Assembly (NCBI GenBank): GCA_017609945.1
Contig: JAFCCZ010000001.1
Span: 1 to 40,068 of the forward strand
Length of the DNA stretch: 40,068 bases
DNA from: Candidatus Iainarchaeum sp.
GTDB taxonomy: Archaea; Iainarchaeota; Iainarchaeia; Iainarchaeales; GCA-2688035
Direction of reading: 5' to 3'
Shown: positions 29,500 through 36,980 of the stretch, piece by piece
Position numbering within the stretch: the stretch's first letter is position 1
Layout of the letters: each line of letters begins with the position of its first letter
The notes under the pieces: model-generated
Told to the model about the DNA's origin: nothing
Databases searched by the model: none
Seen by the model: only the letters and a program-made list of their open reading frames with translations
Translations under genes and position numbers: made by a program

Positions 29500-29532
29500 T
29501 GAACCACTCTAAAAAAAATACCTTAATAAGGG

Positions 29533-29540
29533 TTTTAAAT
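29533..29540 (+). promoter_or_regulatory. TATA-box-like element (TTTTAAAT)
   Basis: Lies 21-28 nt upstream of ATG 29561 in the divergent spacer between the ferredoxin and the 379-aa gene. Confidence 0.35.
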
Positions 29541-29560
29541 CATTCTTTTTTGGGGAAAGC

Positions 29561-30700
29561 ATGGCTGGAAAAGCTCCAAAACCACCAGGGCAGCCTGGAA
29601 AGCCGTCAGGGCGATCTGGAAAGCCGGGAGAAAGGAAACCAAAAAAACCAGGACCCGGGGGCAGGGGGGCAAAGAAAAAGCCAGCTCCTGAAGTTAGGGT
29701 AGTATCACGCCCGAAAGATATTCTGGCAGTTGCCATGGTCACAAGAACGGCTGTTAAAAGGATTGAGACAAAAGGACTAAGCATTGAAACCCTGAGAATG
29801 GGCCTTGACTCAAGCGCAATCAGGGGCCTTTTTGACAAAAAGCTGTTTCCAGCACAGACGCATGATACAACTGTTGGAAGGCTTCAGAACTTTCTTCACA
29901 CCTGGGTGAACAGAAACGCAGGGCTGAACGTGAGAATGCACGAGGAAGCACAAGCTATGGCCAAAGCAAAGGGAATTTCAAATGTTAAAGCATTCAACAT
30001 TGTTCTTGGGCAAAACAGGGAGATTATTCAGAAAAGGCTTGTTAAGAAAGCTGCGCTGGAGCAACTGCTGTTTGTGTGGAGCTCGCACAGAGCTGCAAGG
30101 CGGAGAGAGGAAATAATTGACTCGGTTAAGCCAACAGCCGTAACCAAGAGTTTTGGAAAAACTTATTATGGCCCGAAAGACAAGCCAGGCTCAGTTGTAA
30201 AGCTTGCAGAGGCGGTTGCAAGAATTCCAATGCATCATGCCCCAAGCCAGGTTGCGGAAGCATACTATGGCCTGCCAACAGCCAGCGAAACACTGATGGC
30301 AAACGGAATTCTAACCTTCTTCAAAAGCAAGAACCCGTTGTGGGGCTGTGGAATGCGGTGCGACGTAATAAATGCCGTTTTGAACGGTTGGGGGATGGAA
30401 AACTACCACGTAAGAACTAAGACCTGGCAGGGGGATGTACACTCCGTTGTTCTTGTAAGGCCTGAGAAGGAACGAGGGCTTTGGCTTTTGGCAGACCCTT
30501 TTAGAAATGGCAGATTATTTTTACACGACTTTGAACGCTATAGCCCCCTAAGAGGACGGAGGACAAGTCTGGTTGTTTCACAGGTTGGGCAGGTACTCGG
30601 GGACCACATAAAAAAGCTAGAGGGAAAAGGCGAATGGAGAAAGGGAAGAGGCCTCACAGACCACGTGAAAAACTTCGTACAGTATTATGGGGGAAACTAA
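29561..30700 (+). CDS. Hypothetical protein: Lys/Pro/Gly-rich disordered N-terminus, C-terminal transglutaminase-like (Cys-His-Asp) domain
   Basis: N-terminus is AGKAPKPPGQPGKPSGRSGKPGERKPKKPGPGG. C-terminal LWGCGMRCDVINAVLNGWGMENYHVRT...DVHSVVLVRPEKERGLWLLADPF matches the G-C...H-x-W/V...W-x-x-D-P pattern of transglutaminase-like cysteine peptidases. Confidence 0.55.
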   Translation: MAGKAPKPPGQPGKPSGRSGKPGERKPKKPGPGGRGAKKKPAPEVRVVSRPKDILAVAMVTRTAVKRIETKGLSIETLRMGLDSSAIRGLFDKKLFPAQTHDTTVGRLQNFLHTWVNRNAGLNVRMHEEAQAMAKAKGISNVKAFNIVLGQNREIIQKRLVKKAALEQLLFVWSSHRAARRREEIIDSVKPTAVTKSFGKTYYGPKDKPGSVVKLAEAVARIPMHHAPSQVAEAYYGLPTASETLMANGILTFFKSKNPLWGCGMRCDVINAVLNGWGMENYHVRTKTWQGDVHSVVLVRPEKERGLWLLADPFRNGRLFLHDFERYSPLRGRRTSLVVSQVGQVLGDHIKKLEGKGEWRKGRGLTDHVKNFVQYYGGN

Positions 30701-30925
30701 ATGTGCCTGACAATTCCAGCAAAGGTTGTTGGGTTGCGGGAGAAGGGGCAAAAGGCGGTTGTTGAACAGCTGGGCGTGAGGCGGGAAGTGTTCAACAATG
30801 TGATAAATGCGGAGAAGGGGGAATTTGTGCTGGTGCAGCAAGGGTTTATTGTTGAAAGAATTGAGGAAGAAGAGGCAAAAGAAACCTGGAGGATTTTGAA
30901 TGAGAATCAGAAAAATACGCCGTAG
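30701..30925 (+). CDS. hypC: [NiFe]-hydrogenase maturation chaperone HypC/HupF
   Basis: MCLTIPAKVV (N-terminal Cys) and GEFVLVQQGFIVERIEEEEAKE. The ATG immediately follows the upstream TAA. Confidence 0.85.
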   Translation: MCLTIPAKVVGLREKGQKAVVEQLGVRREVFNNVINAEKGEFVLVQQGFIVERIEEEEAKETWRILNENQKNTP

Positions 30926-31100
30926 GCTGGTGCCCCCGGTTGCAAAGGTAACAGGGCCGGCAAAGGTTGGGGCAAAACCAAAGGGAAAACCACAGGTAAA
31001 TAAGAAAAAGATGATGGTAAAGAAAGAGCCAAAAGAGAAATCGAGGAAGAGGCGGCCTTTGGATCCCGATGCAGGGCATATAATTAATATTAAGGCTTGA
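30900..31100 (+). CDS. Possible 66-aa highly basic small protein (weak call)
   Basis: The ATG ORF overlaps the hypC 3' end by 26 nt and the convergent gene by 11 nt. Sequence MRIRKIRRRLVPPVAK...KKKMMVKKEPKEKSRKRR. No homology recognised, and it may be a purine-rich spacer. Confidence 0.25.
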   Translation: MRIRKIRRRLVPPVAKVTGPAKVGAKPKGKPQVNKKKMMVKKEPKEKSRKRRPLDPDAGHIINIKA

Positions 31101-31878
31101 CCCCTGAAAGCGTTAGCTCGGTGTACTTTTTTAGCTGCTTTGCCTGCTGCTCGGAAAGCTTTTCAACTGCGTTTCCCCAGTGAATTGAGATTAAGTCGCC
31201 TTGGTTTAGCTCAAGCTTGAACGGGTTCTTGAGAGTCTTTTCTTTTTCGCGAAGCTTGAATTCGCCGGACTCGGATAAAAGGGAGACCCCGTTTGCAACA
31301 AGTCCCTTCCCTGTTTCTTTTTTTACCGTGGCCCAGTGCACCATGCAGTTCCCAAGGTTTTGAATTATGGGCTCAACCTTCTGCGAAATGAAGTTAACGT
31401 AGAGCACGTGAAAGGAATGGTGTGGAAGCAAATCGTTTGGGAGCTCTGCGGCCTTTCTCTCCGCAATGCTCCTCGGCAGGCCAAGGTTCTGGAAGGAGAG
31501 AACAGTTTTCTGCAGTTCCCTCTTTGGAACACTCTCAAGCAAACTGTTTCCAATCCAATAGGCTTCAACTACCTGCTCGTGGAAAGGGGTCAGGGAATTG
31601 CACCTGGCAATCAAGTCAAGGTAGGGAAAGAGTGCGTTGAACTTGTGCAGGAGGGGCTTTACTTTTTCGGCTCCCTCTGGGGAAGGAGAATCAATGAATT
31701 TGAGAAATTCCCTGAAGCTTCCCTCCGGGCCGCAGTACCCAAGCTCGTTTGGGATAAGAGAGTACTTGCAGGCCCTGATTAAGGGACTAAAATCGGGTTC
31801 CGGCAAGGGAAACCCCTTTTCTTTTAACGGTTGAAAGCACAAGGCTGAAACCGGTGACAAGGATTGCGCCGGCAACAA
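31090..31878 (-). CDS. Uncharacterised protein; C-terminal ~85 aa resemble a HypC/HupF-type domain (start uncertain: TTG 31878/31842/31809)
   Basis: The N-terminal part has IPNELGYCGP and LPHHSFHVLY. The C-terminal part has GNCMVHWATV...QGDLISIHWGNAVEKLSEQQAKQL, versus the HypC pattern MC[IL]x[VI]P[AG]x[VI]...GD[WY]VLVHVGFA...EA. Confidence 0.55.
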   Translation of the reverse strand: MLPAQSLSPVSALCFQPLKEKGFPLPEPDFSPLIRACKYSLIPNELGYCGPEGSFREFLKFIDSPSPEGAEKVKPLLHKFNALFPYLDLIARCNSLTPFHEQVVEAYWIGNSLLESVPKRELQKTVLSFQNLGLPRSIAERKAAELPNDLLPHHSFHVLYVNFISQKVEPIIQNLGNCMVHWATVKKETGKGLVANGVSLLSESGEFKLREKEKTLKNPFKLELNQGDLISIHWGNAVEKLSEQQAKQLKKYTELTLSGVKP

Positions 31879-32738: not shown

Positions 32739-33122
32739 ATGAAGCAGGTGTTTGTTGCAGGAAACCCCCTGGTTAAAGAGGACAGCCTTGCGCTGAAGGT
32801 TGCAAAAGAGCTTGGGAAAGAACTTGGGGGAGTGGAGTTTAAGGCAATTGATTCGCTGGCAGAAATTGGAGAAATTCCGGACAACTTATGCATAATTGAT
32901 GTTGCAGAGGGCATTGAAAAAGTGGAGGTAATAAGGGATCTGGGAAAGCTGCAGGAGCTAAAGCTTGTTTCGCTACACGATTTTGACCTTGGAACAGAAC
33001 TGCTTCTGTACAAGAAGATTGGAAAGATAAGGAACGTGGCAATAATTGCGATTCCGTTGGGATACGATTTGGGGAAAGCGGTTGAGGAAACAACAGAATT
33101 AATTAAGTCCAGTTTACCTTGA
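32739..33122 (+). CDS. Hydrogenase maturation endopeptidase (HycI/FrhD/HybD family)
   Basis: 127 aa. VFVAGNPLVKEDSLALKVAKEL, CIIDVAEG and VSLHDFDLGTEL supply the Asp/Asp/His metal ligand pattern of the family. Adjacent to hydA, whose C-terminus has a cleavable extension. Confidence 0.65.
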   Translation: MKQVFVAGNPLVKEDSLALKVAKELGKELGGVEFKAIDSLAEIGEIPDNLCIIDVAEGIEKVEVIRDLGKLQELKLVSLHDFDLGTELLLYKKIGKIRNVAIIAIPLGYDLGKAVEETTELIKSSLP

Positions 33123-34389
33123 GGAAGTGCACGCTGCAGCTGATGCACGGATCATAGGCGCGGATCAGCTTTTCCATCTCAAGAGCCGCCTTTTCCCTTG
33201 GCTTTGAGAGAATGGTTGGAACAAAGTCGTGCAAATCAAGCTCAATGCTCCTAATGTTCTGCTGGGTTGGAATAACCATATTGCTTTCGGTAATAAATCC
33301 CTTCCCGTCAAGAGTGTAAGAATGATAGAGCAGGCCGCGCGGGGCCTCTGTTACCCCAACTCCGGAGCAGGCCTTTGGCTTTATTTTGGGAGCAGGCTCG
33401 TTCCTGGGGGAAAGATCTTTTGCAAGGTCTATTGCCGACTCAACGCAGTGCACCAGCTCAATTGCCTGCGCAAGGTTTGTTGAGAAAGGGCTCTTGTTCG
33501 GAAGCTTTGTGCTGCAGCCCTTCAAAGCCTTTCTTGCTTCTGGATGCAGCTGGTTTTTGTTTAATGCAATTCGCGCAAGCGCGCCAACAACATAATCCTT
33601 TCCGTTGAAAACGGCGTTCTTTGCAGTGCTGTAGGGAACAACAACCTCTTGCAGGTGCTGCATTAGCCCGTCCTTTTCAACAGACGTTTTGTCAGAACAG
33701 TGGATGGCCTGCCCCTCCATTAAAGGGTAATTTTTTCCCTTGAGGGCAACAAAATTTGTTTTTCTCTCAAAAGGGTGCTTTGCGGCAAACGAATCAAAGA
33801 GGTGCACGGTTTCAAGCGCCTTTTCCCTAACAGATTCAAGGCCCTTGAGAATTGCCACCAGCTTTTCCGAGTTCGGGCCCTTTGTAACGTGGCCAACGCG
33901 ATAATTCACTGTGTGATGCGGACGCCCGCCCAAAGCGGTTAAAATGTCGGTGCCTGCCTTCTTCAAATTAAGGCCGTCGTGAATAAAGTGGTGCTCTTTT
34001 TCACCAAACTTTAGAACAGATTCCTTGGCCAGATAGTCCGGCAGGGCAAGCATGTAAAGGTGCAGGGAATGGCTTTTGAGAAACTCCCCAAAAATGCTCA
34101 AACGCCTAAGGCTCTTTGTTTGCTCGCTTGGCTCCACCTCCAAGGCATCCTCAACAGCCTCAAGAGCGGTTGTAAGGTGAGAGCTGCTGCACAGGCCGCA
34201 GATTCTTGAAACAATCAACGGAATTTGGGAGAAATGCCTCCCGTTAACCATGTCCTCAAAAAAGCGGTGGGATTCGGTTACGCGGAACTCGCAGGATTCA
34301 ACCTTTCCAGACCGAACCTTCAAGTCAAGGCTTGCGTGGCCCTCAATTTTTGTAATGTTTTCAATGCTAAAGTCCTCATCCTGGTGCAT
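33103..34389 (-). CDS. hydA: [NiFe]-hydrogenase large subunit, group 3b-type (sulfhydrogenase alpha-like)
   Basis: N-terminal RICGLCSSSH and C-terminal DPCISCSVH Ni-Fe ligand motifs, followed by the short extension FLKVNWT. 428 aa. Confidence 0.9.
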   Translation of the reverse strand: MHQDEDFSIENITKIEGHASLDLKVRSGKVESCEFRVTESHRFFEDMVNGRHFSQIPLIVSRICGLCSSSHLTTALEAVEDALEVEPSEQTKSLRRLSIFGEFLKSHSLHLYMLALPDYLAKESVLKFGEKEHHFIHDGLNLKKAGTDILTALGGRPHHTVNYRVGHVTKGPNSEKLVAILKGLESVREKALETVHLFDSFAAKHPFERKTNFVALKGKNYPLMEGQAIHCSDKTSVEKDGLMQHLQEVVVPYSTAKNAVFNGKDYVVGALARIALNKNQLHPEARKALKGCSTKLPNKSPFSTNLAQAIELVHCVESAIDLAKDLSPRNEPAPKIKPKACSGVGVTEAPRGLLYHSYTLDGKGFITESNMVIPTQQNIRSIELDLHDFVPTILSKPREKAALEMEKLIRAYDPCISCSVHFLKVNWT

Positions 34390-35141
34390 TATTTTTCCTC
34401 CATTTTCTTGGTGAACGGGTCAGGGTTAAAGTAAGTGAAGAGGTTGTAGATTTCTTTTTTGGGGATCCCCATTTCTTGGAATTTCTTCCTGAGCGCTTCA
34501 AAATTCCCGTCCTCTGTGAAACCGCGGCAGCCAATGCACTGGGCTCTCTCGCTTGGACAGAGGGCTTTGCAGCCGGCATAGGTTACAGGCCCAAGGCAGG
34601 GAATTCCCTCAAAAAGAAGGCAGGGGTTCTCGCGTTCCCTGCACTCGCTGCAGACGGGGACTTCCTCAAGCTTTGGGACAATTCCGTGGTAGAGCTTTAC
34701 AAAAACATCAAGGATTTCGTGGGTAAAGGCGGGACAGCCCTGGAGCAGAGCGTCAACCTTCACAAACGCGCTGATTGGAAAAGCCTTGTCCTTAACTGGA
34801 ATTATTGCCTTTCTCTTGAGCTTTTTCTGGATCTCCTTTGGCAGGGCATTCCTAATCCCCGGAATTCCGATAATGGTGGCGCATGCCCCAAAAGCAACAA
34901 GGTATTTGCAGCGCTCGCGAATCTCAAGCAAGTGCTTTTTGTCAACCTCGCTTTCAACGCAGCCCTCCACTATCGCAATATCAAGCTTTTCCCCAGGGTG
35001 TTTCCCGTTGAACAAACGAGCGTCAACAATTTCAACAAAATCAAGGGCCTTGAGGAAATTTTCCTCCAAATCAAACATTACAATCTCACAGCCCTCGCAG
35101 CAGGCGAGTGAGTAAAATCCGGCCTTTAGCTTTTTGGGCAT
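34389..35141 (-). CDS. hydD: [NiFe]-hydrogenase small subunit (delta-like)
   Basis: FYSLACCEGCE, GACATIIGIPG, and C-terminal Cys clusters (CSECRERENPC, CLGPVTYAGCKALCPSERAQCIGC). TAATG overlap with hydA. Confidence 0.85.
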   Translation of the reverse strand: MPKKLKAGFYSLACCEGCEIVMFDLEENFLKALDFVEIVDARLFNGKHPGEKLDIAIVEGCVESEVDKKHLLEIRERCKYLVAFGACATIIGIPGIRNALPKEIQKKLKRKAIIPVKDKAFPISAFVKVDALLQGCPAFTHEILDVFVKLYHGIVPKLEEVPVCSECRERENPCLLFEGIPCLGPVTYAGCKALCPSERAQCIGCRGFTEDGNFEALRKKFQEMGIPKKEIYNLFTYFNPDPFTKKMEEK

Positions 35142-35142
35142 T

Positions 35143-35979
35143 TTACTTCTCCTCCAAAGGCATTTTTGCTAAGTCTACCCCATTGAATACCGGGCCGTCA
35201 ATGCAAGCGTATTTTCCCGCAATATTGCAGTGGGCGCACTTTCCCATTCCGCAGTGCATTAATCGCTCAAGGGAAGCGTAAATCTGTTCGTCCCTGAAGC
35301 CGTGCTTTTTGAGTTCTTTCAGCACAAAGTGAAGCATTACCGGGGGCCCAACAATGCAGGCAATGGAATTATCGGGATTTATTTCTGTTTTGTTGAACAA
35401 AGTTGTTACAGGCCCGCAATTTCCTTTCCAGTCAGGAGTGCACTTGTCAACTGTGAGAAGGACCTCAAGGTTCTCTGTTTGCCCCCATTTCTTTAAATCC
35501 TCCTTGAAAAGAAGGTGGTCAGAGTTTTGGCAGCCGTACAAAAGCTTGAGCTTGCCAAATTCCTCTCTCCTGTCAGCGATTGCATAGATCACCGGGCGAA
35601 GCGGGGCCATGCCACAGCCCCCTGAGATAAATAAAACATTCTTTTTCCTAAAGCGCGCAACGGGAAAGCCTCTCCCAAAAGGGCCGCGCAGCCCAATCTT
35701 GTCCCCCTTCTTTAACTGAAGCATTGCGTGGGTTATTACACCAACTTCCTTTATTGTCAACTGCAATGAATCTGTTTTAAGCGGAGAAGATGAAAGGCTT
35801 ATTGGCATCTCCCCAAAACCAAAAACACTTACCATCAAAAACTTTCCTGGCACAAAGTGGAACCGTTTCTGCTTTTGCCTGTCAACGTACTTTATTGTAA
35901 AGGTCTTTATCTTTTTGGTGTCCTCTCTTACCTCAACTATTTCCGCAAGAGCTGGAGTGGTCAACGAGAGTTCCTTCAC
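35143..35979 (-). CDS. hydG: Hydrogenase gamma-like subunit: FAD/NAD(P)-binding oxidoreductase with C-terminal [2Fe-2S] (AsrB-like)
   Basis: GTG start overlaps the hydB stop (GTGA). Ferredoxin-reductase-type fold motifs (GPFG, FISGGCGMAPL) and CGMGKCAHCNI. Confidence 0.8.
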   Translation of the reverse strand: MKELSLTTPALAEIVEVREDTKKIKTFTIKYVDRQKQKRFHFVPGKFLMVSVFGFGEMPISLSSSPLKTDSLQLTIKEVGVITHAMLQLKKGDKIGLRGPFGRGFPVARFRKKNVLFISGGCGMAPLRPVIYAIADRREEFGKLKLLYGCQNSDHLLFKEDLKKWGQTENLEVLLTVDKCTPDWKGNCGPVTTLFNKTEINPDNSIACIVGPPVMLHFVLKELKKHGFRDEQIYASLERLMHCGMGKCAHCNIAGKYACIDGPVFNGVDLAKMPLEEK

Positions 35980-36980
35980 TTTGAATCGCCCCTAATTGTT
36001 GAAGCTATTTCAGTTAAATCAATTCCAACAGGGCAGACCATAATGCAGCGGCCGCATCCAACGCAGAGGGGGAATCCAAAATTTTCCTGGAAATAGGAGA
36101 GCTTGTGCATTACAAACTGCCTTAATCTGGATTCGCGGCTTTCCCTAAAAAAGAAGTCGTGAGAAACTCTTGTAAAGCGCTTTAACTGGCAGGAATCCCA
36201 GGCACGGAACCTTTCAGAGTCACCGGTGTTCAGAATAAATTTGTCAAATGAAAGAAAGCAGTAGCAGCTCGGGCAAACCTGGGTGCAGGAAGAGCAACTC
36301 AAACACTTTTTGGCCTCCTGCTTCCACTTTTTGTGAAAAAAGTTTTTGTCAAGAATTTCTTTGAGGTTGGTTGTTTCAAGCTCCTTGCTGCATTTGAATT
36401 TTGATTCCGGCTTGGTGAAATTGGTCTGGTTAAATAAATCACGGTACTTCTTCACCAATTGCTCGCCCCTTTCGCTTGCAATCTCAACAAAAAAGCTCTT
36501 TTCCTTTTCAACCAAAAGAAGGTCGTGTCCAACAGGCTTGTCAGTTCCCATGCTCTGGCAGAAGCCGTTCTCACAGGGCTTGGAGCACTGAAGTGCGATA
36601 ATTGTAAGGTCCTCCCGAATCGCCTTATACCATTTGTCCTCAGTAAAGTACTCAAGATAGAGTTTGTCAAGCACTTTGATTGCATGCGTGTCGCAGGAGC
36701 GGACCCCGAAGAAAACCCTCTTCTTATTGTCAAGCAAATGCTCAATTTCAAAGGAAGAACTTTTTTTCCTAAAGATAAACTCTTTTTCTAGGGGTGGGGA
36801 GAGTATTTTTTTGGGTGAATATTGGGTTCGCTCTGCAAGGTAAAGTTCTTGGGAGTTGTATGGAAGAAAGCAGGTTGCGTTGTTTTCGTTGAGAGAGGGA
36901 ACAAAAACCTCTGCTTCCTTAGACAGAGCAGTAAGAAACTCGCCTAACTTTTCTTTCTTCAGCAAAAAATTCTGTTGCAT
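35976..36980 (-). CDS. hydB: Hydrogenase beta-like subunit: 4Fe-4S protein (AsrA-like)
   Basis: CLSCSSCTQVCPSCYCF and CVGCGRCIMVCPVGID. The ATG lies 15 nt after the pgk stop, with a GTGAT SD-like sequence. Confidence 0.8.
   Translation of the reverse strand: MQQNFLLKKEKLGEFLTALSKEAEVFVPSLNENNATCFLPYNSQELYLAERTQYSPKKILSPPLEKEFIFRKKSSSFEIEHLLDNKKRVFFGVRSCDTHAIKVLDKLYLEYFTEDKWYKAIREDLTIIALQCSKPCENGFCQSMGTDKPVGHDLLLVEKEKSFFVEIASERGEQLVKKYRDLFNQTNFTKPESKFKCSKELETTNLKEILDKNFFHKKWKQEAKKCLSCSSCTQVCPSCYCFLSFDKFILNTGDSERFRAWDSCQLKRFTRVSHDFFFRESRESRLRQFVMHKLSYFQENFGFPLCVGCGRCIMVCPVGIDLTEIASTIRGDSK

What the first reader, a model, noticed from the sequence alone, without database searches (positions are those of the whole stretch)
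29561..30925. Transglutaminase-like Cys-His-Asp protein with a Lys/Pro-rich tail directly abutting hypC
A 379-aa protein of unrecognised family ends at a TAA immediately followed by the hypC ATG (30698-30703), so the two are almost certainly co-transcribed. Its first ~45 aa are a GKP/KKP-rich disordered tract. Its last ~90 aa show LWGCGMRCDVINAVLNGWGM...DVHSVVLVRPEKERGLWLLADPF. This matches the catalytic Cys / His / Asp spacing of transglutaminase-like cysteine peptidases. I know of no such enzyme in the canonical HypA-F / endopeptidase maturation pathway. It could be a lineage-specific maturation, processing or regulatory factor for the neighbouring hydrogenase. The adjacency could also be coincidental.
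Basis: partly seen in the sequence, partly recalled or inferred. Interest (0 to 1): 0.6.

Follow-up and report, generated by a model that had tools for sequence, protein, structure and literature searches.

The report
Accessory transglutaminase-fold gene upstream of hypC
A small-genome (DPANN-type) archaeon carries a real, previously unclassified cysteine enzyme of the transglutaminase/papain-like fold as the first gene of its hypC transcription unit. Close relatives run the same hydrogenase cluster without it, so it is most likely a lineage-specific add-on and not a hydrogenase maturation factor.

Summary
ORF 29561-30700 (379 aa) ends in a TAA that directly abuts the hypC ATG. Its first 46 residues are a disordered Lys/Pro/Gly tract. 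Cys263, His294 and Asp312 are essentially invariant in 57 relatives.

AlphaFold models (pLDDT 83 for the whole protein, 93 for the domain) retrieve almost only transglutaminase/NAT-fold Cys-His-Asp proteins, with weak scores (best E 9e-4, TM up to 0.48). No Pfam model reaches threshold. I read it as an undescribed family within a known superfamily.

The hydrogenase-maturation reading is not supported:
- The family is multi-copy and confined to one archaeal order. It occurs in 15/38 genomes of a sister family that has no hypC and no hydrogenase.
- In the window's own family, 11 of 15 resolved ferredoxin|hypC sites are empty. One belongs to a same-genus genome in which the 1.14-kb ORF alone is missing.
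- A HycI-like endopeptidase gene is already present in the cluster.

One caveat remains. The N-terminally extended "long form" is a single clade, always found at this locus, and translationally coupled to hypC in 6 of 8 contexts. A facultative link therefore cannot be excluded (about 20%).

Side result: in this phylum DUF6390 (58 genomes) and HypD (5 genomes) never co-occur.

The parts
29518..29545 (+). Conserved promoter-like element (ATACCTTAATAAGGGTTTTAAATCATTC) in the 61-nt divergent spacer between ferredoxin and this gene. It includes a TATA-like TTTTAAAT at 29533-29540.
   Evidence: The same element (ATAGGTTAA.AA.GGGTTTTAAA.CATT) lies upstream of hypC at empty sites and upstream of the TGase-like gene at occupied sites. 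The spacer is 90% identical to the Fd-hypC spacer of same-genus genome G074.
29552..29558 (+). Left copy of the SD-like direct repeat GGGGAAA, just upstream of the ATG at 29561.
   Evidence: Read. G074 has a single GGTGAAA at the corresponding place, directly before hypC.
29561..29698 (+). Residues 1-46: Lys/Pro/Gly-rich, disordered, strongly basic N-terminal tract. It is found only in the three closest relatives.
   Evidence: pLDDT <50. Composition. Present only in P0001-P0003. dN/dS 0.47.
29699..30112 (+). Residues 47-184: all-helical N-terminal extension that defines the 'long-form' clade. No recognisable family.
   Evidence: Helices 51-181 in the model. Absent from the short paralogues. 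No Pfam or PDB sequence match for this region. dN/dS 0.28.
30113..30697 (+). Residues 185-379: transglutaminase/NAT-fold catalytic domain. Catalytic codons: Cys263 (30347-30349), His294 (30440-30442), Asp312 (30494-30496).
   Evidence: Domain model pLDDT 92.8, pTM 0.91. Foldseek PDB top hits 3isr, 4xz7, LapG, PeiP/PeiW, NAT, PNGase, XPC and vasohibin. Triad conservation. dN/dS 0.19.
30690..30696 (+). Right copy of the SD-like direct repeat GGGGAAA, inside the last codons of the gene and 4 nt upstream of the hypC ATG.
   Evidence: The second BLAST segment of G074 starts here (GGTGAAATTACGTG aligned to GGGGAAACTAAATG).
30701..30925 (+). hypC (74 aa, starts MCLTIP), the second cistron of the unit.
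   Evidence: PF01455 E=1.1e-17; TIGR00074 50.5 bits against a cut-off of 48. It is the only hypC in the genome.
30900..31100 (+). Small basic ORF (66 aa) overlapping the hypC 3' end. Probable third cistron.
   Evidence: Conserved after hypC in G074 (47% identity) and as a 48-58-aa ORF in L080-L082 and L004. It directly follows the TGase-like gene where hypC is gone (G067, MRIR...).
31090..31878 (-). Context: DUF6390 protein, the constant convergent partner of hypC.
   Evidence: PF19927 E=8e-36 with a weak HypC-like C-terminal hit. Next to hypC in every cluster, and it moved together with hypC in G067.
32739..33122 (+). Context: 127-aa divergent HycI/HybD-type hydrogenase maturation endopeptidase.
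   Evidence: 6 of 13 orthologues hit PF01750 (best E 0.0038). Invariant GN..D15..D54..H80. The large subunit ends DPCISCSVH-FLKVNWT, i.e. it has an extension to be cleaved.
33103..36980 (-). Context: group-3b-type [NiFe]-hydrogenase genes (alpha, delta, gamma, beta).
   Evidence: NCBIfam sulfhydrogenase Shy/Hyd subunits, E 1e-81 to 1e-43.

Best explanation
ORF 29561-30700 is a genuine gene under purifying selection. It encodes a cytoplasmic enzyme whose C-terminal 195 residues adopt the transglutaminase/arylamine-N-acetyltransferase (papain-like) fold. The nucleophile Cys263 sits at the N-terminus of a helix. His294 and Asp312 sit on the two following strands.

It belongs to an undescribed, multi-copy protein family confined to one order of small-genome (DPANN, reportedly Iainarchaeota) archaea. 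Most members are about 200-290 aa, have basic N-termini, and are scattered among unrelated housekeeping genes.

The window's protein belongs to one clade, the 'long form', which gained a helical N-terminal extension. In this genus it also gained a Lys/Pro-rich tail. This clade sits between the conserved ferredoxin/hypC divergent promoter and hypC. It is therefore transcribed as the first cistron of the hypC unit, ahead of hypC and a small basic ORF.

Inferred mechanism: Cys263 forms a thioester (acyl-enzyme) intermediate, with His294-Asp312 as general base. The enzyme then hydrolyses or transfers an amide or isopeptide bond on a protein or peptide substrate. The basic N-terminus would provide docking to an acidic partner or a nucleic acid.

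The link to hypC is positional and inherited. The gene is dispensable for the hydrogenase cluster and is repeatedly lost (or gained) as a precise single-ORF indel flanked by a 7-nt SD-like repeat.

Shown: gene reality, fold class, triad conservation, operon position, patchy distribution. Inferred: chemistry, substrate, cytoplasmic location.
For: Gene reality:
- dN/dS against the 74%-identical orthologue is 0.25 overall and 0.19 in the catalytic domain.

Fold:
- Models have pLDDT 82.9 / pTM 0.80 (whole) and 92.8 / 0.91 (domain).
- Foldseek top hits in the PDB are 3isr (8.9e-4, TMq 0.48), TGase 4xz7, LapG, PeiP/PeiW, NAT, PNGase, menin, XPC, vasohibin and FXIII.
- In BFVD the top hits are NAT-like acetyltransferases, PeiP and a TGase-like proteinase.
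- Weak Pfam echoes: DUF553 (TGase-like) at 8e-4 in 2 members, Transglut_core at 0.11, and Transglut_core at 0.05 on the genome's own C59 paralogue.

Triad:
- C263 57/57, H294 54/57, D312 51/57.
- C263 is the first residue of helix 263-277. H294 lies in strand 293-302. D312 follows strand 307-311.

Family scope:
- 39 representatives among 1.84 billion proteins.
- Present in 40/215 genomes of the phylum, all in one order, with up to 3 copies per genome and tandem copies in some.
- Neighbours of the paralogues are unrelated housekeeping genes.

Not tied to hydrogenase:
- Family f14 has the protein in 15/38 genomes but hypC in 0/38 and [NiFe] in 0/38.
- In f1 the Fd|hypC site is empty in 11 genomes and occupied in 4.
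- Same-genus G074 (neighbours 80-93% identical) lacks exactly the ORF.
- When hypC+DUF6390 relocated in G067, this gene stayed behind.
- A HycI-like protease is present.

Operon position:
- The conserved promoter element precedes whichever gene is first.
- The spacing to hypC is 0-1 nt or an overlap.

Location:
- No hydrophobic segment in any of the 57 members. Median net charge of the first 30 residues is +6.
Against: - Structural matches are weak (best E about 1e-3, TM 0.34-0.48).
- No Pfam or NCBIfam model passes threshold for the window protein.
- hhalign against a bona fide Transglut_core domain of the same genome aligned only 20 columns around the Cys (probability 2%).
- Triad geometry could not be measured because coordinates are not exposed.
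- Protease, transamidase and acetyltransferase chemistry cannot be told apart. No substrate is known.
- Against 'unrelated to hydrogenase': all 8 distinct long-form contexts lie at the hydrogenase/hypC locus. Six of 8 keep translational coupling to hypC at 40-50% protein divergence. In one (L083) the gene is followed directly by the HycI-like gene.
- The lineage lacks HypD/E/F, so its maturation pathway is non-canonical and may contain unknown players.
Confidence: 0.62

Rival explanations
1. The long-form clade is a facultative, lineage-specific accessory of the HypDEF-less hydrogenase maturation system. For example, it could be a cysteine peptidase or acyl-transferase that processes or modifies HypC, DUF6390 or the large subunit, or a regulator of the unit. 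It would be beneficial but not essential.
For: - The long forms are one clade (100/100 support).
- Every known context (8 distinct) is at the Fd|hypC-hydrogenase locus.
- Six of 8 are translationally coupled to hypC.
- P0009 is followed directly by the HycI-like gene.
- A clade-specific N-terminal extension suggests a new function.
- The whole family lacks HypD/E/F although it keeps the hydrogenase, so unknown maturation players are expected.
Against: - The gene is absent from 11 of 15 resolved sites in the same family, including a same-genus genome with an otherwise 80-93% identical cluster.
- The whole block from GGR through GAPDH is syntenic, so position reflects vertical inheritance and not selection for linkage.
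- The gene did not follow hypC+DUF6390 when they moved in G067.
- Short paralogues have no hydrogenase link, and f14 has no hydrogenase at all.
- The endopeptidase slot is filled.
- The hypC-EamA-DUF6390 set reported elsewhere in the scan occurs without any such gene.
- Constraint is more relaxed than on hypC (dN/dS 0.25 vs 0.10).
Confidence: 0.2
2. The family is a selfish or conflict-related cassette (mobile ORF, defence component, or host-interaction effector of an episymbiont) that inserts between a promoter/SD and a resident gene.
For: - Patchy, multi-copy distribution with tandem arrays (three in G071:C2, two in G131:C11). Many copies lie near contig ends.
- Small GIY-YIG and LAGLIDADG endonuclease genes are nearby in several loci.
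- The presence/absence difference is a precise single-ORF indel flanked by a 7-nt direct repeat.
- Structural neighbours include phage pseudomurein endoisopeptidases PeiP/PeiW.
- It evolves faster than its neighbours.
Against: - No transposase, integrase or inverted repeats.
- No PADLOC or PHROG family hit.
- No signal peptide or TM segment in 57 members.
- Long-form divergence (38-51%) is on the same scale as the flanking genes, which fits vertical descent with losses.
- The flanking 'repeat' is simply the SD that each cistron needs, and equally fits a microhomology deletion.
Confidence: 0.12
3. The Cys-His-Asp pattern is fortuitous. The protein would be a non-enzymatic scaffold or nucleic-acid-binding protein (like XPC/Rad4 or menin, which share the fold without catalysis), or not a functional gene.
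For: - XPC/Rad4 and menin appear among the fold hits.
- The N-termini are strongly basic.
- No activity data exist.
Against: - The triad is the most conserved feature of a family with 26% mean column identity, whereas the non-catalytic relatives have lost it.
- dN/dS is lowest in the catalytic domain (0.19).
- The triad lies on the canonical structural elements.
Confidence: 0.05

Closest known systems
Microbial transglutaminase-like cysteine proteases (Pfam Transglut_core PF01841 / archaeal DUF553 PF04473; structural example PDB 3isr, Cytophaga hutchinsonii putative cysteine protease)
   Same: Same alpha/beta fold class by Foldseek (3isr is the best PDB hit, E 8.9e-4, TMq 0.48). Cys at a helix N-terminus, with His and Asp on successive strands. 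H-to-D spacing is 18 residues. Weak DUF553 and Transglut_core echoes from some members.
   Different: No member reaches the Pfam gathering score, and the window protein gives no hit at all. C-to-H spacing is only 31 residues. The family has its own invariant features (WGCG, VRT, HS, ADPF, a C-terminal W-x-x-G). It has a basic N-terminal tail and, in the long form, a 140-residue helical extension.
BTLCP / LapG-type bacterial transglutaminase-like cysteine proteinases (PDB 4fgq, 4fgp)
   Same: Fold hits at E 4e-3 to 1e-2, with the highest TM normalised to the target (0.41-0.45). Cys-His-Asp triad. Similar domain size (about 180 aa).
   Different: LapG proteins are exported, Ca-dependent periplasmic proteases of Proteobacteria. 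This family has no signal peptide or hydrophobic segment, is archaeal, and has no sequence-level match.
Pseudomurein endoisopeptidases PeiW/PeiP of methanogen proviruses (PDB 8jx4, 8z4f)
   Same: Archaeal-world TGase-fold Cys-His-Asp isopeptidases. They are recovered in both the PDB and the viral libraries.
   Different: Weak similarity (E 1e-2 to 4e-2, TM 0.24-0.36). Pei enzymes carry pseudomurein-binding repeats and act extracellularly during lysis. Neither applies here, and there is no viral context.
Arylamine N-acetyltransferases (NAT, PF00797; PDB 4nv7, 3d9w) and NAT-like amide synthases (GdmF)
   Same: Same Cys-His-Asp fold. TMq 0.43-0.44, comparable to the best TGase-like hits. The top BFVD hits are NAT-like. 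This leaves acyl-transfer chemistry open.
   Different: No Pfam NAT hit. It lacks the three-domain NAT architecture and its conserved sequence signatures (the latter from general knowledge, not tested here).
Canonical [NiFe]-hydrogenase maturation set (HypA-F plus HycI/HybD endopeptidase) and the hypC-EamA-DUF6390 set of Hyp-poor small genomes
   Same: Co-transcribed with hypC and located in a 3b hydrogenase cluster that also holds EamA, DUF6390 and a HycI-like protease.
   Different: No homology to any Hyp protein. Absent from most clusters of the same family and from all hydrogenase clusters outside it. Present in hydrogenase-free genomes.

Membership tests
Transglutaminase-like / papain-like Cys-His-Asp superfamily | Nucleophilic Cys at the N-terminus of an alpha-helix | tested here: met
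   Cys263 is the first residue of helix 263-277 (79-92 in the domain model). It is invariant, 57/57.
Transglutaminase-like / papain-like Cys-His-Asp superfamily | His on a beta-strand and Asp/Asn on the adjacent strand about 15-25 residues later | tested here: met
   His294 lies in strand 293-302. Asp312 comes directly after strand 307-311, a spacing of 18. Conservation is 54/57 and 51/57, plus 2 Asn.
Transglutaminase-like / papain-like Cys-His-Asp superfamily | Significant structural similarity to solved members | tested here: met
   The domain model hits 3isr at 8.9e-4 (prob 1.00). The next roughly 45 hits are almost all members of the superfamily. TM-scores are only 0.34-0.48, so the similarity is at fold level and distant.
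Transglutaminase-like / papain-like Cys-His-Asp superfamily | Triad side chains within hydrogen-bonding geometry | not testable with these tools
   Model coordinates are not exposed to the Python box.
Pfam Transglut_core (PF01841) / DUF553 (PF04473) | Profile match above the gathering score | tested here: not met
   The window protein gives no hit. The best among 27 family members is DUF553 at 8e-4 (2 members) and Transglut_core at 0.11 (1 member). hhalign to a true Transglut_core domain gave probability 2%, with 20 columns around the Cys.
BTLCP / LapG family | N-terminal signal peptide and periplasmic location; Ca-binding site | tested here: not met
   No hydrophobic stretch in any of the 57 members, and the N-termini are strongly basic. 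Ca ligands were not examined.
Arylamine N-acetyltransferase (PF00797) | Profile match and three-domain NAT architecture | tested here: not met
   No Pfam NAT hit at E<=1 in 27 members. There are only fold-level hits at E 1e-2 to 1e-1.
[NiFe]-hydrogenase maturation machinery (functional membership) | Co-occurrence with hydrogenase/hypC across genomes | tested here: not met
   Family f14: protein in 15/38 genomes, hypC 0/38, [NiFe] 0/38. Family f1: hypC 21/22, [NiFe] 20/22, and the long form at the locus in only 4 of 15 resolved sites.
[NiFe]-hydrogenase maturation machinery (functional membership) | Conserved operonic linkage with a maturation gene | tested here: inconclusive
   For the long-form clade only, 6 of 8 contexts are translationally coupled to hypC. 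All of them are in one archaeal family, where the whole 12-kb block is syntenic. Linkage is broken in G067 and in P0009.
HycI/HybD hydrogenase endopeptidase | Homology to PF01750 with metal ligands Asp/Glu, Asp, His | tested here: not met
   The target has no such hit. The separate 127-aa ORF (32739-33122) does: 6/13 orthologues hit PF01750, with invariant D15/D54/H80.

The most novel reading that the evidence does not exclude
The long-form clade is a recruited, optional component of a HypD/E/F-independent [NiFe] maturation route. It would be a thiol enzyme, co-translated with HypC, that processes or acyl-modifies HypC, DUF6390 or the large subunit, or controls expression of the unit through its helical, basic N-terminus. 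Such a route appears to exist in these archaea, built around hypC, EamA, DUF6390 and a divergent HycI.
Probability: 0.13. Interest if true: 0.7.

Novelty: new member of a known kind. Interest (0 to 1): 0.3.

Why it matters
- It defines an unannotated, order-restricted family of transglutaminase/NAT-fold cysteine enzymes in DPANN archaea, with no Pfam, NCBIfam, PHROG or PADLOC model. Such lineage-specific expansions in reduced genomes often mark lifestyle-specific biology.
- It removes a tempting but unsupported candidate from the list of 'missing' hydrogenase maturation factors in these organisms.
- The comparison sharpens a more important question. This phylum keeps 3b hydrogenases with hypC, DUF6390, EamA and a HycI-like protease while almost universally lacking HypD/E/F. 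DUF6390 and HypD are mutually exclusive.
- If the minority reading were true, the gene would be a handle on that unknown pathway.

Tried and rejected
Sequence searches that gave nothing useful:
- The whole protein against Pfam, NCBIfam and PDB sequences gave nothing meaningful.
- A PDB profile search with the family alignment gave nothing.
- The search for homologous proteins with the broad alignment returned only 2 proteins because of the word-index limit.
- The search for related loci on viral contigs failed because the broad alignment has no sufficiently conserved stretch.
- The genome-contig scan returned only two uninformative record titles.

Ideas tested and dropped:
- I suspected an XRE-like helix-turn-helix in residues about 50-110 of the N-terminal extension. 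Pfam and PDB profile searches of that region gave only scattered insignificant hits. The idea is dropped as unsupported, though not excluded.
- hhalign of the family profile against a true Transglut_core domain from the same genome aligned only the Cys helix.
- The PADLOC and PHROG libraries gave no family-level hits, so there is no support for a defence or phage origin.
- Neighbour analysis of 20 paralogue loci found no recurrent functional theme.

Tools and literature:
- Literature searches for DPANN+HypC+HypD, for DUF6390, and for transglutaminase-like+hydrogenase maturation returned nothing. The Cell 2024 archaeal hydrogenase paper (PMC11216029) does not address this.
Full report
OBSERVATION

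The ORF at 29561-30700 (+) encodes 379 aa. Its TAA stop (30698-30700) is followed without a gap by the ATG of a 74-aa ORF beginning MCLTIP. That ORF is HypC (PF01455 E=1.1e-17; TIGR00074 above its cut-off) and is the only hypC in the assembly.

Residues 1-46 hold 14 Lys/Arg, 11 Pro, 10 Gly and 2 acidic residues. They are modelled as disordered. The tract is coding, because two relatives that are 74-75% identical keep it in frame with an in-frame indel.

Two corrections apply. The basic tract is N-terminal, and it is the C-terminus that abuts hypC.

The nearby hydrogenase is group-3b-like.

WHAT THE PROTEIN IS

There is no hit in Pfam, NCBIfam or PDB sequences.

Homologues:
- Ten close homologues exist among 5.8 billion clusters.
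- An exhaustive profile search of 1.84 billion representatives finds only 39 proteins. About 30 of them are 200-290-aa proteins that share only the C-terminal half.
- In a 27-sequence alignment with 26% mean column identity, the invariant columns are Y235, G262, C263, H294 and W359. R285 and D312-P313-F314 are nearly invariant, and C267 is not conserved.
- Over 57 collected members, C263 is 57/57, H294 54/57 (the rest are gaps) and D312 51/57.

Structure:
- AlphaFold2 gives a confident model (pLDDT 82.9, pTM 0.80). It has a disordered 1-46, an all-helical 50-220 and an alpha/beta 224-362.
- C263 opens helix 263-277. H294 lies in strand 293-302. D312 ends strand 307-311.
- A domain-only model (residues 185-379) reaches pLDDT 92.8 and pTM 0.91.
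- Foldseek against the PDB returns, for both models, almost only transglutaminase/NAT-fold proteins: 3isr (8.9e-4, TMq 0.48), TGase 4xz7, LapG, PeiP/PeiW, NATs, PNGase, menin, XPC/Rad4, vasohibins and FXIII.
- The viral library gives NAT-like acetyltransferases, PeiP and a TGase-like proteinase.

Sequence-level echoes are weak:
- DUF553 at 8e-4 in two members and Transglut_core at 0.11.
- Transglut_core at 0.05 on the genome's own C59 paralogue.
- hhalign to a true Transglut_core domain aligns only the Cys helix.

The conclusion is a divergent, unclassified family inside a known superfamily. The chemistry (hydrolase, transamidase or acyl-transferase) is undetermined.

The gene is under purifying selection. 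dN/dS is 0.25 overall and 0.19 in the catalytic domain, against 0.10 for hypC and 0.08 for GGR. No member has a hydrophobic segment, and N-termini are basic with a median of +6 over the first 30 residues.

DISTRIBUTION AND THE HYDROGENASE QUESTION

The assembly is 0.97 Mb in 107 contigs and 79.6% complete.

Across the 215 genomes held for the phylum:
- The family occurs in 40, all in one order, often with 2-3 copies.
- hypC occurs in 68 and the [NiFe] large subunit in 72.
- Family f14 has the protein in 15/38 genomes and hypC and [NiFe] in 0/38.
- Paralogue neighbourhoods in 20 loci hold unrelated genes: HAD, NUDIX, GT2, CoaBC, an aaRS, ThyX, XPD, Kae1/Sua5 and small homing endonucleases. Some loci have tandem copies.

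In the window's own family f1, hypC is 21/22 and [NiFe] 20/22. A gene-order map shows a conserved block in nearly all genomes: GGR-Fd | hypC | DUF6390 ... HycI-like | HydABGD-PGK-GAPDH.
- The TGase-like gene lies between Fd and hypC only in G000, G062 and G069.
- In G067 it lies at that site without hypC, because hypC+DUF6390 have moved together to another contig.
- Eleven genomes have Fd and hypC directly adjacent.

The same-genus genome G074 has neighbours that are 80-93% identical, and its Fd-hypC spacer is 63 nt. That spacer is 90% identical to the window's Fd-TGL spacer. The alignment resumes at GGGGAAACTAA|ATG of hypC. The difference is therefore the ORF alone, flanked by GGGGAAA at 29552-29558 and 30690-30696.

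A conserved element (ATAGGTTAA.AA.GGGTTTTAAA.CATT) precedes hypC at empty sites and the TGase-like gene at occupied sites. Where the gene is present, it is the first cistron of the hypC unit. This supports co-transcription. It equally shows that the hypC unit functions without the gene.

The protease role in maturation is already covered. The 127-aa ORF 32739-33122 and its orthologues hit HycI (6/13, best E 0.0038) and keep GN..D..D..H. The large subunit carries a 7-residue extension after DPCxxCxxH.

THE CAVEAT

A maximum-likelihood tree of the shared domain places all N-terminally extended proteins in one clade with 100/100 support.

All eight distinct contexts of that clade lie at this locus:
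- Six have a 0-1-nt gap or an overlap with hypC (window, L080, L081, L082, L004/G062, G069).
- One is followed by the small basic ORF (G067).
- One is followed directly by the HycI-like gene (L083).

All of these are from one archaeal family in which the whole block is syntenic, so this can be explained by descent. It still leaves room for a facultative link.

The lineage has no HypD (0/23), no HypE over cut-off (0/23), no HypF (0/23), and in this genome no HypA or HypB. Its maturation pathway is therefore non-canonical.

SIDE RESULT

Phylum-wide, DUF6390 occurs in 58 genomes and HypD in 5 (G055, G060, G180, G183, G214). The two sets do not overlap. In f11 the two genomes without DUF6390 are exactly the two with HypD.

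Earlier notes of this scan reported a hypC-EamA-DUF6390 set in other HypDEF-poor small genomes. The same trio is present here.

VERDICT

- The fold and co-transcription readings are supported.
- The maturation-factor reading is not supported.
- The gene is a new family within a known superfamily, of modest interest in itself.

LIMITS

- The N-terminal extension remains unidentified.

Noticed in passing
window 31090-31878 (-) and phylum-wide: DUF6390 and HypD are mutually exclusive among hydrogenase-bearing genomes of this phylum. DUF6390 is in 58 genomes and HypD in 5, with no overlap. In family f11 the two genomes lacking DUF6390 are exactly the two with HypD. DUF6390 is always next to hypC and moved with it in G067. 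This suggests DUF6390 stands in for HypD (and perhaps HypE/F).
   Followed up: partly
whole genome G000 and its archaeal family (23 genomes): A group-3b [NiFe]-hydrogenase with hypC, EamA, DUF6390 and a HycI-like protease is present. HypD is 0/23, HypE over cut-off 0/23 and HypF 0/23. HypA and HypB are absent from this genome. Five of the 23 genomes are at least 90% complete.
   Followed up: partly
window 32739-33122 (+): This 127-aa ORF has no Pfam hit of its own but is a very divergent HycI/HybD-type maturation endopeptidase. Six of 13 orthologues hit PF01750, with invariant GN, D15, D54 and H80. The large subunit ends DPCISCSVH+FLKVNWT.
   Followed up: partly
window 30900-31100 (+): A small, very basic ORF (66 aa, MRIRKIRRR...) overlaps the hypC 3' end. 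It is conserved as a 48-77-aa ORF after hypC in G074, L004 and L080-L082. It directly follows the TGase-like gene in G067, where hypC is gone. It is probably a real third cistron.
   Followed up: partly
window 29518-29545: A strongly conserved bidirectional promoter-like element (ATAGGTTAA.AA.GGGTTTTAAA.CATT) lies between the ferredoxin-GGR unit and the hypC unit. It is present in at least 12 genomes of the family.
   Followed up: partly
G000:C59:7227-7919 (-) and G000:C67:1158-1787 (-): The same genome holds two short paralogues of the family. They lie next to a Tyr/Trp-tRNA synthetase gene and an RpiB-NUDIX fusion gene respectively. The C59 copy keeps Cys, His and Asp. In the printed alignment excerpt of the C67 copy, Cys and His are visible and the Asp region is not aligned.
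   Followed up: partly
L004 7415-9745 and L082 1561-3891: In two relatives the geranylgeranyl reductase gene carries a LAGLIDADG domain (776-aa product), i.e. a probable intein inserted in GGR. The window's GGR (409 aa) lacks it.
   Followed up: no
G071:C2 (L071 636-3719) and G131:C11 (L068 7646-11013): There are tandem or near-tandem arrays of short family paralogues: three in G071 interrupted by coaBC, and two in G131 flanking a 695-aa gene. This indicates local duplication.
   Followed up: no
G000:C94 (L086 1015-2709): A 564-aa secreted or membrane-anchored protein with a bona fide Transglut_core domain (E 5.7e-24). It is unrelated to the family studied here.
   Followed up: no
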